NCBI GenBank assembly: GCA_000002435.2
Contig: CM018792.1
From: Giardia intestinalis
Taxonomy: Eukaryota
Length of the DNA: 64,000 bases
Direction: 5' to 3' (one strand)
The position numbers are program-made. This document shows positions 27,001-33,000 of the stretch, piece after piece; position 1 is the stretch's first letter, and every line of letters starts with the position of its first letter.

Positions 27001-30000
27001 GGGGAGACTAAGAATGGGGTGTCGACAAACTCGGCTAGCGAGGGGAGGGACGAGCTTTTGATGAACGATAGAATCCTCATCACCGGTGACAATGTGTTTT
27101 TCCAGGTCCAGCCGATCCGAAACGGACGGTTGGTTGGCGGCAGAGATAGATCCATGATCAAGAAGATGGAGCCGCTGTTGAAGGCCATTTATCCGCTGCA
27201 AAGAATCGCTTCGGAAGCGGCAGTTCCAGCTAGCATGGAGAAGAGTGAAAATAATTCTGATCTCACCAGTCACCGCGTGTGTCTGGAGCTGCCTCTATAT
27301 CGCAAGAACATCCGCGCGCTCTACGGGATACCGGCTAACTGCTTTTTGTTCTGCACGTTCAATCAAGTGTACAAGTTCGACATGGGGACGCTGGGAATCA
27401 TCGCCGCTCTGCTGCGCAGTGTGCCCAATGCATACTATGCGCTCCTCAAGTTTCCCCCTGCGTCTCAGCTGCACATCGAGGCCTTCTTTAGGCACAAGGC
27501 GCCGGACATCTTGGATAGGGTCATCTTTCTAAGCATGCTTCCGATGAAGGTGGAGCACATACGGCGCTACCTGGCCGTTGATGTGTTCGTGGACACCTTG
27601 AAGTGCAACGGAAGCACCATCGTGCTCGACGCGCTGTGGTCAGGTGTTCCTGTCGTCGGATTTGTAGGGGAATACATTCTTAGCCGGAAGACCCTTTCGT
27701 TTCTGAGCGTCCTGGAATGCAAAGACCTGATTTGCGCGTCCCAAGGGGAGGCCGTACTATTGTGCACCCGCTTGGCGGTAGACAGCGGCTACTATTTTAG
27801 CGTACGGAAGCGGATCCTAAAGAATAGATCGAATCTCTTCAACATTTCGCGGTGGTGTGACAACTTCGTGTTGACCATGATGCTTGCCTACAAAAACTGG
27901 ATCTTCGGCGGCAAGCCGACCAGCTTTTCGACAGAGAGGGTCATTGCAAACGTGAAGAGCCAGGGCTTCTCGTGGCCCTTAAAGAGTACGGGGGCACAGT
28001 AGGTACAGCTCCACTGGGCAGCCCTATGAGGACTGCGCTGATCTGTGCCTACGAAATCGAGATCCTATATACGTGTTATTGTATTTGTCCACCCACGCAG
28101 GCCAGATGCACGTGTACCTGGCTGCTCCACTCGATGGCTGCACCATCGTGCCGTGCTCCATTGCGTGCTCACACATTCTGAGCTCGTGATATCCGTAGGT
28201 GGCCCTCTGAACGGGCAGAATGTGCAACTCGTGGAGGATGGCAAATGTGGAGAGGATTGCATAGAGGAACGAAAAGTCCAGCTCGCCGTCTCGTAAAAGG
28301 TGCCTCTCTGCATTGAATAGGCGGACGCGCTTGTACTGGGGCCACAGCGGGACAGTGATCCTGGACATGCTGTTGATCTGCAGGAACTTGAGGTAGTAGC
28401 GGTGCAGGAAGTTGCCGTAGCTGGACTGAACGGAGTCAAACCAGTGGGCCCTGACGTACATGCGTAGAGACACCAGTAAGTTGACTGTATTGTAAATATC
28501 GCTATCACCGTGCGATGATGCGCCGTCATCTCTAAGAATGGTCCGAGCCTCTGCCAAGGAGGCAGGTAGGCGAGGAAGGTCCGCTGGCTCCAGAGCAAGC
28601 ACAAACTTATAGAAGGCGTCGCTGCTGAGGAGCTCGCGAACAAACTCTGCTATCTTAAAAAGGGTCACACCTATCATAATGGAGGCCTTGATAGCCGAAA
28701 GAGCCGGCTGCGCGTCGGCGAAGAGCTGGTAGAGCTTGTCGAGCGGCGGAAAGAGGGAGATCAGCGAGTATGTACACCCATTGCGATACTTATCGATCAC
28801 GGTGAAAAGGTTCTTCCTGAGCTGGCGAGGGTCTTCTGACGAGGGTCTGCTGCACGGGGGCTCATTGAGACGTGGCTCTCCAGAATACAGAGACGTTCCG
28901 CCTACTGTGTTCTGTTCTTCTGGATGGCCTGCACGTAAGGAGACCAGATCTTCCATAGGTGGCAATGCAGAAACTTTTCTCCTGAAATAGTCGAGCTCGT
29001 CAAACGCAACGGGGTCAGAAAACCTGCCATTGGCATGCGGTCTGATGGCTGATGTGCGGAGACGCCTGTGGCGGGATGAACGGATGCTTGCCGCCGACTT
29101 GCGGGCTATATTTCCAGCGAGTGCACACGTTTGTGCCTCGCATTCCTCAGAGGGTGAATCATAGAATGAATCCTCGCAGGCCATTTGAGCCGGCTGCCCA
29201 GATGAGTGGACCTCCTTCCAGAAAAGAGAATGCTTGGGCCGAGGTGAAGAGCTGTGAGGAAGAAAGCCGTCAGATTCACGCACCTTCCAACCATGCGCCA
29301 TATCACTCTGTAGCCTGTCACGGTCTGCAATAAGAGAAGAGCTACAAGAGCGTTTCATTGAAGAGCACGATGAGCCTCTGCATAGCTGTGTCTTGATGTC
29401 CTCAGAGCTCAGGCTCAGCAAATGTATCTTGGCCTCAAGATCTGCAATTGCCGTCGTCGTGCTGTTTAGAACATCGAGATAGTGCGCCGCCTGTAGCTTT
29501 AGTCCCCGAAGCTGGCTCATACACGCAGTAATTGCTACGTCGTCTCTGCGCACCTGGGAGTCAATGCGACGCCACATCGCTTGTCGCCGACACCTTTCCT
29601 CTGTGTCTTGGAGTGCCCTGACACTGCTTCTCTCTGTCCCACGTCGATGCTGCTCTGTAAGCTCCTCGGGGGACAGATATGCAAAACCCATAGCGCAGGG
29701 CAGTCGGAAAGTAGAGCCGGACTCTCGCTAATTTTTCAGACCAAAGGTCGCCAATAAACCTGTTCACTGATAGTCTGTCTAGTCGAACGTCTGGGGTCTG
29801 TGCATAGCAGTCCTCAACAAAACACCAATAGGCCCCCAAGGCTCTAGCGTTTGACTTGGGAAAAGTAGGGGATGTGACGAACAGACACGTTTCACTAGGT
29901 GTATCTGAGCAAATTCCCTCGTGCAAGCTACTGCACTGGATGGGTCTCCTGCTTACCGTCCAAGATCCGAGAGTCGGATGCCCTCGATTCCGGCGGAAGA

Positions 30001-33000
30001 ACCCCTATGTCCCAGCTCTCCTAAAAGCTGCCGCTCCTCGCGGTGCCCCCTAGGACTTCCCTCCCTCTGGCCCGTCGGGGTCAACCATCGTCTGATATCT
30101 AGTGAGCACCCGTTGTCTCGGGGCTACCGTCGGTCACAGCAGCCTGGCCTCCGCGTGACTCTGGTGCTCCGTGACGAAGATTGCACGCCACGACCCCGGG
30201 TGTCTACCCCGTTCCTCGGGGTGCCTCTTCGTCTCCTCGTGGATTATACCATCAGTCTCGAGTATGATCGGAGGGTGCGCTCCACGTACGCCTCCATCTT
30301 GAGGTTGTGGTACGCATTCGTGGATGTCGATGGAGTACTCCCATGTGTTGTGTCGGGGAGAAGTATGGCCCTCTGCTCATGGATCGCAGGGCGCTCTTGC
30401 AGGTGCTCCGTCACCCAGGACGAGATCATGTCGATGCTCACCCTGTGCAGTGCGTCTGGCTCAGTGACCTGTGGGCTGGTCCATCTGCACCGCACAGCAC
30501 GCTTGGGGGTGATGCTTCGGTCTGTCGAGACGGTTGGTCCAGGGCCGCATCTCTGAGAGGCGTCGTCTGAGGCACCAGGAGCAGTCAGGACCGGTTCACC
30601 GAGGCCGTCTCTCTACAATCGGCACCCGTCTACTCGATGGTGTCAGGCACTGCCAGCTGCTGTAGTAGACCCCCGGCAAGTGACCCAGACCGCCACCACT
30701 CTCCGGTGCAGGCAGGATCAGTCCGCCTCTGTCAGCCAAGCACCCCAACTCCTATTTCTTGTCGAGGGATTCATATGGGTCACGTGTGGGTCTGTCTGGA
30801 CAAGCGGGGCGAGTGATTAGTACCATCACTAGCTTCGGCCCTCCGTTGCCCTCTCTATCGCCTCGGGGGAGGGGCATAAATCTTCTTCCATCAAAGTGGA
30901 TGACGTCTGACCTGTGAGATCTGGATCTCGGTTGCTGAAGAGCGAGAGACACGCCCAGTATAATAACTTGCATAGGGACTTCCTCGGGCAGTTGGCAAAC
31001 TAACCTTGGTGAAGCAGAGTAGATTATGGACAATAAGCAACAGTTCGACGCCTCAAAGCAAGGCCCTGCTACTATACAATCCAGCGATCAATGCATACGA
31101 GGTCTCTATCAGTGTTGCTCTGCTATCGTTATATCACTCGCAAAAGCAGTACATTCTTTCCGACCCTGTCATAGCTGTCCTGCGGAACATGTGCAGCGAT
31201 ACTACGTTCACCACAGACAGCGATACACACCTGAAGGTGCGTCTTAACTTGGATATCGAAACCAGCGATGGATATCAGGGGCTCGAGGCAGATGTCGTCT
31301 TCTTGTCGTTGTCGGAGCCCAGAGGTAATGAATTCAGGAATAACCTCTGCAGATCTCTTGTGGCTGTAAGCCGGGCACGCAGGCTATTCGTCTGCATCGG
31401 GGCAGTAGACCAATACGACAATCAAATATGGAGAAATGTATCTAGCACAGTGTCCTGCCCAGGTGTTCAAACAGTAGCGTAACGACATCGTCAAGTCCAG
31501 TTAGTATACTTACATCATTTAAACCCTCAAGTCTTTCTTTATCGAGTGGGCCTATCCGGAGTCTCAGCACAAGTTTTTCTCCCTCCTGTATCAGGCTGTG
31601 CATGGTCTTAGCCACATGTCGAAGAATGGTTGAAGCCCGTATTGATATAGATGCATCGTCAGTATTAATAAGAGTTTTGGAGAGCATTGCGGACTGATCA
31701 TAAAAACTGTGGGGATCCACTTCAAATATGTCCCTGTCTAAGTTATACTTTGTCACTATTTCATTAAAGGTACTGCACTCCTTATTAACAAATTTGATGA
31801 GTGTATCAAACTTTCGGCTCTGGATGAAAAGTTGCTCCTTATATTGTCCAGTAAGCCTTAGTGCGTCATCTAATTGTTTCCTTAACACCGCTTGCTTCTC
31901 CTGTAACCTGATGTTCTCCTTTTCAAGGCTTTCATACTCTGCTGTGGTCTTTAAAGTGTCAATGGCGGTTCTAAGTGATAAATTCTCAGCCCTTAGGTCT
32001 TCATTAGCATCATCTGAGTCTTGAAGTTGCCTTCTGAGCTCCCTTATAGTGTCGTTTGCTTCCTGGAGCATCATGTCTTTCTCCCGAAGCTCAGAATGCA
32101 GAGCTTTGGCTTGGTTTCGATATTTTTCCACCTGGGACAGGTCAAATTTTTCTTGAAACTCTGCCAGCGATTCACCGTAAAGCGAGACCCCACTAAGATG
32201 GTTGGTATAGGACCCAGGGCTTGGATCTTTGATGGAAAATGTTACTGATCCTTTTTGCTTGGCACTAGATACAGTGCTGCGCTGAACAGAATTTGCTCCC
32301 AGATCAGCAATTCTAAGAGTCATGTCTTCATGTGCATGCTCACTCTGGTCCTCTCGCAATACATTGCTTCGGCCAAAGCTAGAAAGAGAAAGAGGAACTA
32401 ATATGCGAAAAGATTTGGTGAAGATGTTGTTTTTTAGATTACCTGATGGGTCGATGATGTCCTTTGTTGTGATTTCGGGCGCTGAAAGCCCTCGTTTGCG
32501 AATTATCCGGTTTAAATGGCGCATGTCGGAAATGTACAGACATATGATCTCTTCTGCTGCCTTGTTATATGAGTAAATATCATCTCCAAGAGACCTCTCG
32601 TGTCTGTTGACAAGGAAGGCCTCAGCAAGCTCCTCCTTTTGGCTGTGCGTGATGGGCGAATCAGAGACAAACTCCAGTGGAATTCTGGCTTCGCTTGATA
32701 AGATGGCCATTATCTTTGACGAAAAGAGCTGGGCAAGCTCTCTTTTCTTGAGAATGCCTTGCAGGTCAACGTGGCGAAACGGCAGAAGCCCCTTCAAGTA
32801 ACAGCACACTGAAGAAAGATCAGTTAAATATATGTCCATTGTGTTAAAGTACAGCCTCCTGGCAAGCTCCTTTTGATTCCTAATGAGCGACCTATTCGTC
32901 TTGACATTATGGGCCTTGATTGCCTCCAAGATGTTAGTCTGGTCTAGGACGCCCCAGTTAACACTTACGGTGATGTCTGGAGTACGTGCGCGCGTGCTTC

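What the first reader, a model, noticed from the sequence alone, without database searches (positions are those of the whole stretch)
29692..31482. 1.3-kb GC-rich ORF-poor block ending in an SF1-helicase motif V/VI remnant: a decayed gene in a very compact genome
Elsewhere in this window spacers are 3-100 bp. Here 1.3 kb has stops in all six frames; the longest ORFs are Arg/Ser/Pro-rich GC artefacts. At its 3' end a plus-strand frame with no ATG encodes a clean Upf1-like helicase C-terminus (DGYQGLEADVVFLSLS...SLVAVSRARRLFVCIGAV). The simplest reading is a pseudogenised SF1 helicase whose core has drifted. Alternatives are a frameshift-ridden assembly region or a non-coding RNA locus.
Basis: seen in the sequence. 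Interest (0 to 1): 0.6.

Follow-up and report, generated by a model that had tools for sequence, protein, structure and literature searches.

The report
Duplicated helicase tail beside junk DNA
The helicase "remnant" is a dead 538-base copy of the tail of a helicase gene that survives intact on another Giardia chromosome, and the GC-rich stretch in front of it is unrelated non-coding DNA from a second, larger duplication, so this is an ordinary rearrangement scar rather than a gene that decayed in place.

Summary
Window 29692-31005 is non-coding and GC-rich (0.58, against 0.48 for the window). 31028-31482(+) encodes SF1/Upf1-like helicase motifs V/VI with no usable ATG.

The reading "one helicase gene decayed in place" does not hold. 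The window is Giardia duodenalis WB. The flanking genes are GL50803_114392 and GL50803_12074 (both 100%).

An intact 1431-aa parent helicase (XP_001707935/KAE8301346) lies on another contig, next to the 114392 paralogue GL50803_111871. DH contig AHGT01000092 shows that locus in full.

Window 31028-31565 is a 538-bp copy (94.6%) of the parent's last 150 codons plus 83 bp of flank. Window 26633-30852, which includes most of the GC-rich block, is a separate 4.2-kb duplicated unit (92.9%). It comprises the OGT 3' part, the 555-aa gene and the block. A 175-bp locus-specific spacer joins the two pieces.

No helicase similarity exists upstream of 31028. The block shows no codon periodicity and differs between strains by frameshifting indels.

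An apparent purifying-selection signal in the fragment disappeared once the parent genes were added. Changes unique to the WB fragment fall 4:3:5 over codon positions. The signal reflects history shared with the parent, partly through gene conversion.

Verdict: an unannotated duplicated gene fragment at a segmental-duplication junction. Interest is low.

The parts
26633..30852 (.). A 4.2-kb duplicated unit comprising the OGT 3' part, the 555-aa gene and most of the GC-rich block. A paralogous copy lies at the GL50803_111871 / intact-helicase locus.
   Evidence: blastn of the window against DH contig AHGT01000092 (L021 4572-351): 92.9% over 4260 columns. OGT residues 1000-1480 are recovered there at 95% identity in one open frame.
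28024..29691 (-). GL50803_114392, a 555-aa hypothetical protein. It is the paralogue of GL50803_111871.
   Evidence: 100% identical to P0036, 96% to P0003. No Pfam domain.
29692..29896 (.). 5' flank of the 555-aa gene. This is the only part of the spacer shared with assemblage E.
   Evidence: 74% identity to P15 L003 1886-1683, with similarity ending at 29896.
29897..30852 (.). GC-rich (0.60) non-coding block. It is specific to assemblage A and exists in at least two paralogous copies.
   Evidence: No Pfam hit in six frames and no Rfam hit. Substitutions show no 3-periodicity in any pair of copies. There are many non-3n indels against DH. Copies are 71-94% identical and star-like: 72/69/59 unique sites. 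No similarity to the P15 or assemblage-B upstream regions or to the rest of the window.
30853..31027 (.). Locus-specific 175-bp spacer between the two duplicated pieces. It contains an ACTAAC...AG string at 31001-31017.
   Evidence: 94% identical between WB and DH contig L005, and absent from L021. GC 0.50. No canonical Giardia 3' splice motif.
31028..31482 (+). Truncated copy of the last 150 codons (motifs V and VI) of the 1431-aa Upf1-like helicase. It has no start codon and is unannotated.
   Evidence: AAA_12 at 31.4 bits. 96.6% amino-acid identity to DH helicase residues 1282-1430, and 94.6% DNA identity over 31028-31565. The parent P0051 is intact in WB. Changes unique to the WB fragment fall 4:3:5 by codon position and include 5 non-synonymous codons.
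31483..31565 (.). The remaining 83 bp of the 538-bp duplicated segment. In the window it is the 3' coding end of GL50803_12074 on the - strand.
   Evidence: Homology with L021 runs to 31565 and then stops. The copy beside the intact helicase differs at 8 of 83 sites, while WB and DH agree here.
31442..33040 (-). GL50803_12074, a 532-aa coiled-coil protein. It is convergent with the helicase fragment and overlaps it by 41 bp.
   Evidence: 100% identical to P0044. Weak BicD-like coiled-coil match. dN/dS of about 0.1 against DH.

Best explanation
The locus is a scar of segmental duplication in the assemblage A lineage of Giardia duodenalis. It has no function of its own.

The window (WB, 2.76-Mb contig) reads: OGT, then GL50803_114392, then a GC-rich non-coding block, then a 175-bp spacer, then a 538-bp copy of the 3' end of a helicase gene, then GL50803_12074. 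The intact 1431-aa helicase (AAA_11 + AAA_12, Upf1-like SF1B) lies on the 1.49-Mb contig beside the paralogue GL50803_111871.

At that second locus, seen in DH, the order is: helicase, 83 bp of 12074 tail, a 1.4-kb OGT 3' relic, the 555-aa paralogue, then a copy of the block. The two loci therefore carry the same two pieces in permuted order, and each holds a relic of a gene that is intact at the other.

The helicase piece in the window lacks motifs I-IV, a start codon and an annotated gene model. It accumulates changes without regard to codon position. It is occasionally overwritten by gene conversion from the parent.

Shown: the homology boundaries, the intact parent, the paralogous block and the lack of coding signal. 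Inferred: the order of events (duplication, possibly through a tandem or circular intermediate, followed by deletion) and the role of gene conversion.
For: Identity of the window: the flanking ORFs are 100% identical to GL50803_114392 and GL50803_12074. Their protein accessions are consecutive (KAE8303407 and KAE8303408), which implies nothing is annotated between them.

Intact parent: P0051 (KAE8301346, 1431 aa) is on the same 1,485,438-bp contig as GL50803_111871 (KAE8301345). It has AAA_11, AAA_12 and AAA_19 domains, and its closest solved relatives are ZNFX1, UPF1 and Aquarius.

Structure of the paralogous locus: DH contig L021 carries the 555-aa paralogue and a 1431-aa helicase. Window 31028-31565 matches L021 5140-4603 at 94.6%, and window 26633-30852 matches L021 4572-351 at 92.8%. 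An open OGT 3' relic lies there.

No helicase signal upstream of 31028.

Four-way comparison: 12 changes unique to the WB fragment fall 4:3:5 by codon position, with 5 non-synonymous codons. Three sites are strain-specific, 2 are paralogue-specific and 2 are mosaic.

The block is non-coding.

The junctions are reproduced in DH contig L005 and Logan contig L002.

Contigs from P15, from an assemblage B metagenome and from an E-like Logan sample end or diverge at this exact spot.
Against: The WB DNA of the 111871/helicase locus could not be fetched. Its structure is inferred from DH, from consecutive protein accessions and from a 1.36-kb Logan contig (L022) whose product is 100% identical to the WB parent.

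The fragment frame is still open over 168 codons in both strains.

Among changes unique to either fragment within 31033-31440, synonymous ones still outnumber non-synonymous ones by 7 to 2. This is my count and it is unpolarised. It is explained only if part of that branch belongs to the selected parent lineage.

The WB and DH positional orthologues of the block are as different as paralogues. Simple duplication does not predict this, and it needs ectopic exchange or a further copy.

The origin of the GC-rich sequence itself is unknown.
Confidence: 0.85

Rival explanations
1. In-situ pseudogene: a complete helicase gene once lay between the 555-aa gene and 12074, and its core has drifted into the GC-rich block.
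For: The helicase tail overlaps the 12074 stop codon in exactly the same way at both loci. The intact copy still carries 83 bp of 12074 tail. The full gene was therefore probably once adjacent to 12074 at this site.
Against: No helicase similarity in any frame upstream of 31028, even against the 95%-identical parent. Only 1.3 kb is present where 3.8 kb would be needed. GC jumps from 0.49 to 0.60. Most of the block is part of another duplicated unit that belongs with the 555-aa gene. If the gene was once here, its 5' part was deleted, not drifted.
Confidence: 0.05
2. Live coding piece: the fragment is still translated, either as the 3' exon of a cis- or trans-spliced mRNA (acceptor near 31017) or as a 97-aa protein starting at Met62.
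For: The frame is open in both strains. WB-against-DH differences in 31033-31440 fall 11:3:1 in favour of third codon positions, P about 0.0005. An ACTAAC...AG string at 31001-31017 is 100% conserved in DH. Giardia is known to trans-splice, including one helicase gene (PMC5224939).
Against: With the parents added, changes specific to the WB fragment are not periodic (4:3:5) and include 5 non-synonymous codons. The canonical Giardia 3' motif CT[AG]ACACACAG is absent, and no cleavage motif lies nearby. No GTATGT is conserved in the block. An intact parent exists, so no split gene needs repairing. A transcriptome-wide screen found only five trans-spliced introns (PMC5224939). The piece lacks motifs I-IV.
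Confidence: 0.05
3. The GC-rich block is a functional non-coding element, such as a structured RNA gene or a long regulatory region of the 555-aa gene.
For: It is retained in both paralogous loci and in both strains. The conservation is patchy. RNAalifold gives an extensive fold with 9 compensatory pairs.
Against: No Rfam match at E<=1. The Giardia ncRNA 3' processing motif is absent. Copies differ by 11-29% and by many indels. The two-sequence alifold result is not discriminating for 60% GC DNA. The P15 orthologue lacks the block entirely.
Confidence: 0.07
4. Assembly artefact: a collapsed or chimeric join of repeats in the reference.
For: Short-read and 454 contigs of several strains break at this locus. 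DH contigs L005 and L021 are identical over 29518-29896.
Against: The block/spacer/fragment/12074 junctions are reproduced in DH contig AHGT01000014 and at 100% identity in the Logan contig of SRR9222601.
Confidence: 0.03

Closest known systems
Duplicated gene fragments (non-processed partial pseudogenes) at segmental-duplication junctions
   Same: An intact parent sits elsewhere in the same genome. The homology has sharp ends and includes non-coding flank. The copy has no start codon or promoter context and is near-identical at the DNA level. Substitution is relaxed, and there are signs of gene conversion with the parent.
   Different: It sits in a very compact genome where such relics are uncommon. 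Each of the two loci holds a relic of a gene that is intact at the other (helicase tail here, OGT tail there), in permuted order.
Upf1-like SF1B helicases (Pfam AAA_11 + AAA_12; UPF1/NAM7, ZNFX1, Aquarius, Sen1, DNA2)
   Same: The fragment carries recognisable motifs V and VI (TSDGYQGLEADVVFLS, SLVAVSRARRLFVCIG). The parent has AAA_11 and AAA_12 domains and hits ZNFX1, UPF1 and Aquarius in the PDB.
   Different: The parent belongs to a Giardia-specific family of 1350-1460-aa proteins with a long N-terminal region that matches no known domain. The window piece lacks motifs I-IV and cannot be a helicase.
Giardia trans-spliced split genes (HSP90, dynein heavy chains, p68 helicase)
   Same: It is a gene piece with no ATG that begins just after an ACTAAC...AG string, in an organism known to join gene pieces in trans.
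   Different: The strict CT[AG]ACACACAG acceptor is absent, no partner is known, and the complete gene exists in one piece elsewhere.

Membership tests
Duplicated gene fragment / segmental-duplication relic | An intact parent gene is present elsewhere in the same genome | tested here: met
   P0051 (KAE8301346, 1431 aa, WB, 1.49-Mb contig) and P0049 (DHA2_152862). The fragment is 96.6% identical to residues 1282-1430.
Duplicated gene fragment / segmental-duplication relic | DNA-level homology has sharp boundaries and extends into non-coding flank | tested here: met
   31028-31565 matches at 94.6%, including 83 bp past the stop codon. There is no similarity on either side.
Duplicated gene fragment / segmental-duplication relic | The copy shows no coding constraint of its own | tested here: inconclusive
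   Changes unique to the WB fragment fall 4:3:5 by codon position, with 5 non-synonymous codons. However, unpolarised fragment-unique changes in 31033-31440 are 7 synonymous to 2 non-synonymous, and the frame is still open.
Unitary pseudogene decayed in situ | Residual, frameshifted homology to the rest of the gene in the adjacent DNA | tested here: not met
   Six-frame Pfam scan, tblastn with P0012-P0016 and blastn against the DH parent locus found nothing upstream of 31028.
Functional Upf1-like SF1B helicase | Motifs I (Walker A), II and III-IV of the RecA1 and RecA2 domains | tested here: not met
   Only AAA_12 profile positions 103-193 are present. The Walker A sequence GCPGSGKST and the AAA_11 region of the family have no counterpart in the window.
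Giardia spliceosomal 3' exon (cis or trans) | The acceptor motif CT[AG]ACACACAG (or ACTAACACAG) immediately upstream of the exon | tested here: not met
   There are no matches to CTRACACAG in the window. No match with up to 2 mismatches lies near 31000. Only ACTAAC plus 11 nt plus AG is present.
Giardia spliceosomal 3' exon (cis or trans) | A 5' partner with GTATGT, a complementary intron half and the TCCTTTACTCAA cleavage motif | not testable with these tools
No conserved GTATGT lies in the block, and there is no cleavage motif in 29692-31482.
Known non-coding RNA family | A match to an Rfam covariance model | tested here: not met
   No match at E<=1 in 28500-32500.

The most novel reading that the evidence does not exclude
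The helicase tail is not dead. It is kept open and homogenised with its parent because it is expressed, either as a small motif V/VI protein or as an alternative 3' exon joined in trans at the conserved ACTAAC...AG site. A second, less novel reading is that the permuted order of the two loci records a duplication through a circular DNA intermediate.
Probability: 0.05. Interest if true: 0.6.

Novelty: new member of a known kind. Interest (0 to 1): 0.15.

Why it matters
The main value is for annotation and for caution.
- It explains why a 1.75-kb gene-free stretch exists in an otherwise tightly packed Giardia chromosome.
- It flags an unannotated pseudogene fragment in the WB reference.
- It links two WB loci as products of an assemblage-A-specific segmental duplication. 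One is OGT/114392/12074 and the other is 111871 plus the intact helicase.
- It shows that a strong third-codon-position substitution signal between strains can be produced in a dead fragment by history shared with an intact paralogue, including gene conversion.

The locus is also a recurrent breakpoint in short-read Giardia assemblies. It does not open a new biological question.

Tried and rejected
1. Frameshift-tolerant search for the helicase core in the block. I ran a six-frame Pfam scan with stops masked, tblastn with five family members at E<=10, and blastn and tblastx against the P0012 gene and the DH parent locus. Nothing was found.

2. Structured RNA. Rfam gave no hit at E<=1. RNAalifold on two sequences was not discriminating.

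3. Splicing. Scans for the acceptor and cleavage motifs were negative. A duplex-energy search between GTATGT sites in the window and 30880-31017 did not differ from background.

4. Purifying selection on the fragment. It looked significant in the two-strain comparison. I rejected it as evidence of function after the four-way comparison with both parents.

5. Synteny of the closest non-A relative. P0012 on L007 is a 35% GC gene, and its flanks do not match 12074 or the 555-aa gene.

6. Metagenome scan for the missing 5' part. It found only distant, non-Giardia relatives.

7. Relation of the block to the P15 upstream region, which holds a VSP/HCMP-like tail and a MYND ORF. There was no similarity.

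8. Fetching the WB 111871/helicase locus. It is not on record.

9. Literature. The known trans-spliced "p68 helicase" has a canonical ACTAACACAG acceptor and Bacteroidetes-like best hits, so it is a different gene. No paper in the library names these gene IDs.
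Full report
**1. What is in the sequence**

The window is very compact. Most gaps between long ORFs are 3-71 bp, and four others measure 198-739 bp. The stretch between the ORFs at 28024-29691(-) and 31442-33040(-) is 1750 bp, the longest gap.

GC is 0.578 for 29692-31005 and 0.604 for 29897-30852. The window average is 0.483, and the last 455 bp have 0.49.

The longest stop-free stretch in the block is 215 codons. That is somewhat long for its composition, since 2% of simulations reach it. It is not conserved in the second strain.

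The + strand frame is open from 30976 to 31482. It matches Pfam AAA_12 above the curated cut-off (31.4 bits, profile 103-193 of 195) and, more weakly, Viral_helicase1 and UvrD_C_2. The first in-frame ATG is codon 62.

**2. Where the window comes from**

The 555-aa ORF is 100% identical to GL50803_114392. The 532-aa ORF is 100% identical to GL50803_12074. Both come from G. duodenalis WB, on a 2,761,001-bp contig. The 1480-aa ORF at 23560-28002 is the O-GlcNAc transferase.

The protein accessions of 114392 and 12074 are consecutive (KAE8303407 and KAE8303408). I infer that nothing is annotated between them.

**3. No helicase core in the block**

Three searches looked for it:
- Six-frame translations of 29650-31100, with stops masked, hit no Pfam family apart from one chance-level zinc-finger match.
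- A full HMMER scan with the fragment found a Giardia family of 1346-1464-aa proteins whose extreme C-terminus it matches (P0012 at 62%; P0013 = GLP15_4901; P0014 = GSB_152074).
- tblastn of those proteins on the whole window at E<=10 hits only 31033-31470.

Rfam finds nothing in 28500-32500.

**4. The intact parent and the paralogous locus**

The 555-aa gene has a WB paralogue, GL50803_111871 (96% identical), on a 1,485,438-bp contig. The next accession on that contig, KAE8301346 / XP_001707935, is a 1431-aa "AAA domain-containing protein".

Its DH orthologue DHA2_152862 lies on contig AHGT01000092 next to the DH 555-aa paralogue. That paralogue, P0037, is closer to 111871 (541/555) than to 114392 (527/555).

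The window fragment is 96.6% identical to residues 1282-1430 of this helicase. The parent has AAA_11, AAA_12 and AAA_19 domains. Its nearest solved relatives are ZNFX1, UPF1 and Aquarius. "Upf1-like SF1" is therefore right at the superfamily level.

**5. Exact anatomy**

- Window 31028-31565 aligns to the DH parent locus at 94.6%. The match covers the last 150 codons plus 83 bp beyond the stop codon, and it ends abruptly on both sides.
- In the window those 83 bp are the 3' coding end of 12074 on the other strand. The intact helicase therefore still drags a relic of the 12074 tail.
- Separately, window 26633-30852 aligns to the same DH contig at 92.9%. This piece comprises the OGT 3' part, the 555-aa gene and the block.
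- At that locus an OGT relic covering residues 1000-1480 lies between the 555-aa paralogue and the helicase.
- Window 30853-31027 (175 bp, GC 0.50) is specific to this locus. It is 94% identical between WB and DH.

The order in the window is therefore [OGT...555...block][spacer][helicase tail]. At the other locus the order is [helicase ... tail][OGT tail...555...block]. The two pieces are the same but permuted.

A tandem or circular intermediate followed by deletion would produce this arrangement. That step is inference.

**6. Is the fragment alive?**

Comparing WB with the DH positional orthologue (contig AHGT01000014, L005) gave dN/dS of about 0.21. Differences fell 11:3:1 in favour of third codon positions, with P about 0.0005 under mutation spectra taken from the block. 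This suggested a live coding segment, so I considered a trans-spliced 3' exon.

The evidence on splicing was mixed:
- An ACTAAC...AG string at 31001-31017 is conserved.
- The strict Giardia acceptor CT[AG]ACACACAG is absent.
- The cleavage motif is absent nearby.
- No 5' splice site is conserved in the block.
- The published trans-spliced helicase is a different gene (PMC5224939).

The parent sequences resolved the question. They came from DH contig L021 and from L022, a Logan contig whose product is 100% identical to the WB parent. The four-way site patterns were:
- 12 sites unique to the WB fragment, spread 4:3:5 over codon positions, including five non-synonymous codons (I84, E104, S147, S150, A158);
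- 3 sites shared by fragment and parent within a strain, the pattern expected from gene conversion;
- 2 sites shared by the two fragments against the two parents;
- 2 mosaic sites.

The DH fragment is closer to the DH parent (10 differences) than to the WB fragment (20 differences). The periodic signal therefore comes largely from history shared with a selected parent, not from selection on the fragment.

A residual excess of synonymous changes among unpolarised fragment-unique sites (7 to 2) keeps a small probability for expression.

**7. The block**

Substitutions show no 3-periodicity in any pair of copies. WB and DH differ by fourteen indels, most of them not multiples of three. The ORFs called in the DH copies do not correspond to the WB ORFs. 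The block is non-coding.

It is absent from the assemblage E orthologous locus. Similarity to P15 stops at 29896. Beyond that point P15 has an AT-rich spacer, a MYND-finger ORF and a VSP/HCMP-like transmembrane tail at 70% GC.

Contigs from P15, from an assemblage B metagenome and from an E-like Logan sample all end or diverge here. That is consistent with a repeat or rearrangement boundary.

**8. Unexplained**

The three available block copies (WB window, DH L005, DH L021) are about equally distant, with 72, 59 and 69 unique sites respectively. L005 is nevertheless the positional orthologue of the window copy.

Adjacent single-copy DNA differs by only about 6% (30853-31027), and the intergenic stretch 33041-33500 by 2.6%. 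L005 and L021 are identical over 29518-29896.

Ectopic conversion among two or more copies, or a further unsampled copy, is the likely cause. I could not test this without the WB sequence of the other locus. The ultimate origin of the 60% GC sequence is unknown.

**9. Verdict**

The fragment is a duplicated tail of a gene that is intact elsewhere, and the GC-rich DNA is unrelated to it. This is an ordinary kind of feature, an unannotated partial pseudogene at a segmental-duplication junction, and it is of low general interest.

Noticed in passing
L021 3206-4621 (DH contig AHGT01000092); homologous to window 26557-28002: A 1.4-kb relic of the OGT 3' end (residues 1000-1480, 95% identical, one open frame) lies between the 555-aa paralogue and the intact helicase. 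It mirrors the helicase relic in the window.
   Followed up: partly
Not in the window: GL50803_14637 (P0050, WB 1.49-Mb contig): This annotated 216-aa hypothetical protein is a 93.7%-identical partial copy of residues 427-631 of the same 1431-aa helicase. Logan and ENA assemblies hold further 260-aa and 642-aa pieces. The gene has therefore shed several fragments in assemblage A.
   Followed up: partly
window 29897-30852 compared with L005 and L021: The positional orthologues of the GC-rich block in WB and DH are as divergent as paralogues (star-like, 72/59/69 unique sites). Neighbouring single-copy DNA differs by 3-6%.
   Followed up: partly
window 31442-31482: The helicase reading frame and GL50803_12074 converge and overlap by 41 bp. 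The same overlap is preserved as a relic beside the intact helicase, so the full gene was probably once the neighbour of 12074.
   Followed up: partly
L003 26-504 (P15 contig ACVC01000119, upstream of GLP15_2295): At the position of the block, assemblage E instead has a 70% GC stretch. It encodes a VSP/HCMP-like transmembrane tail and a canonical MYND-type zinc-finger ORF, and the contig ends there.
   Followed up: no
window 31001-31017: AAACTAACCTTGGTGAAGCAG is a yeast-like branch-point string followed by AG, just upstream of the homology boundary. It is 100% conserved in DH, but its spacing is not the Giardia acceptor spacing.
   Followed up: yes
L007 (Logan ERR3333382, 4456 nt): The closest non-assemblage-A relative of the helicase (P0012, 68% identical over its full length) is encoded by a gene of only 29-41% GC. 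It comes from an unidentified Giardia-like source, and its flanks are not syntenic with the window.
   Followed up: partly
window 10611-11132, 33041-33734, 59616-60354: Three other gaps of 520-740 bp without long ORFs occur in this compact window. The ORF next to the last gap (60355-61353, - strand) has 60% GC.
   Followed up: no
window 18240-20474(-)/20335-22581(+) and 47153-50467(-)/50345-52411(+)/52305-54983(-): Long ORFs on opposite strands overlap by 107-140 bp when measured from the first ATG. Either the true starts lie further downstream or the genes really overlap.
   Followed up: no
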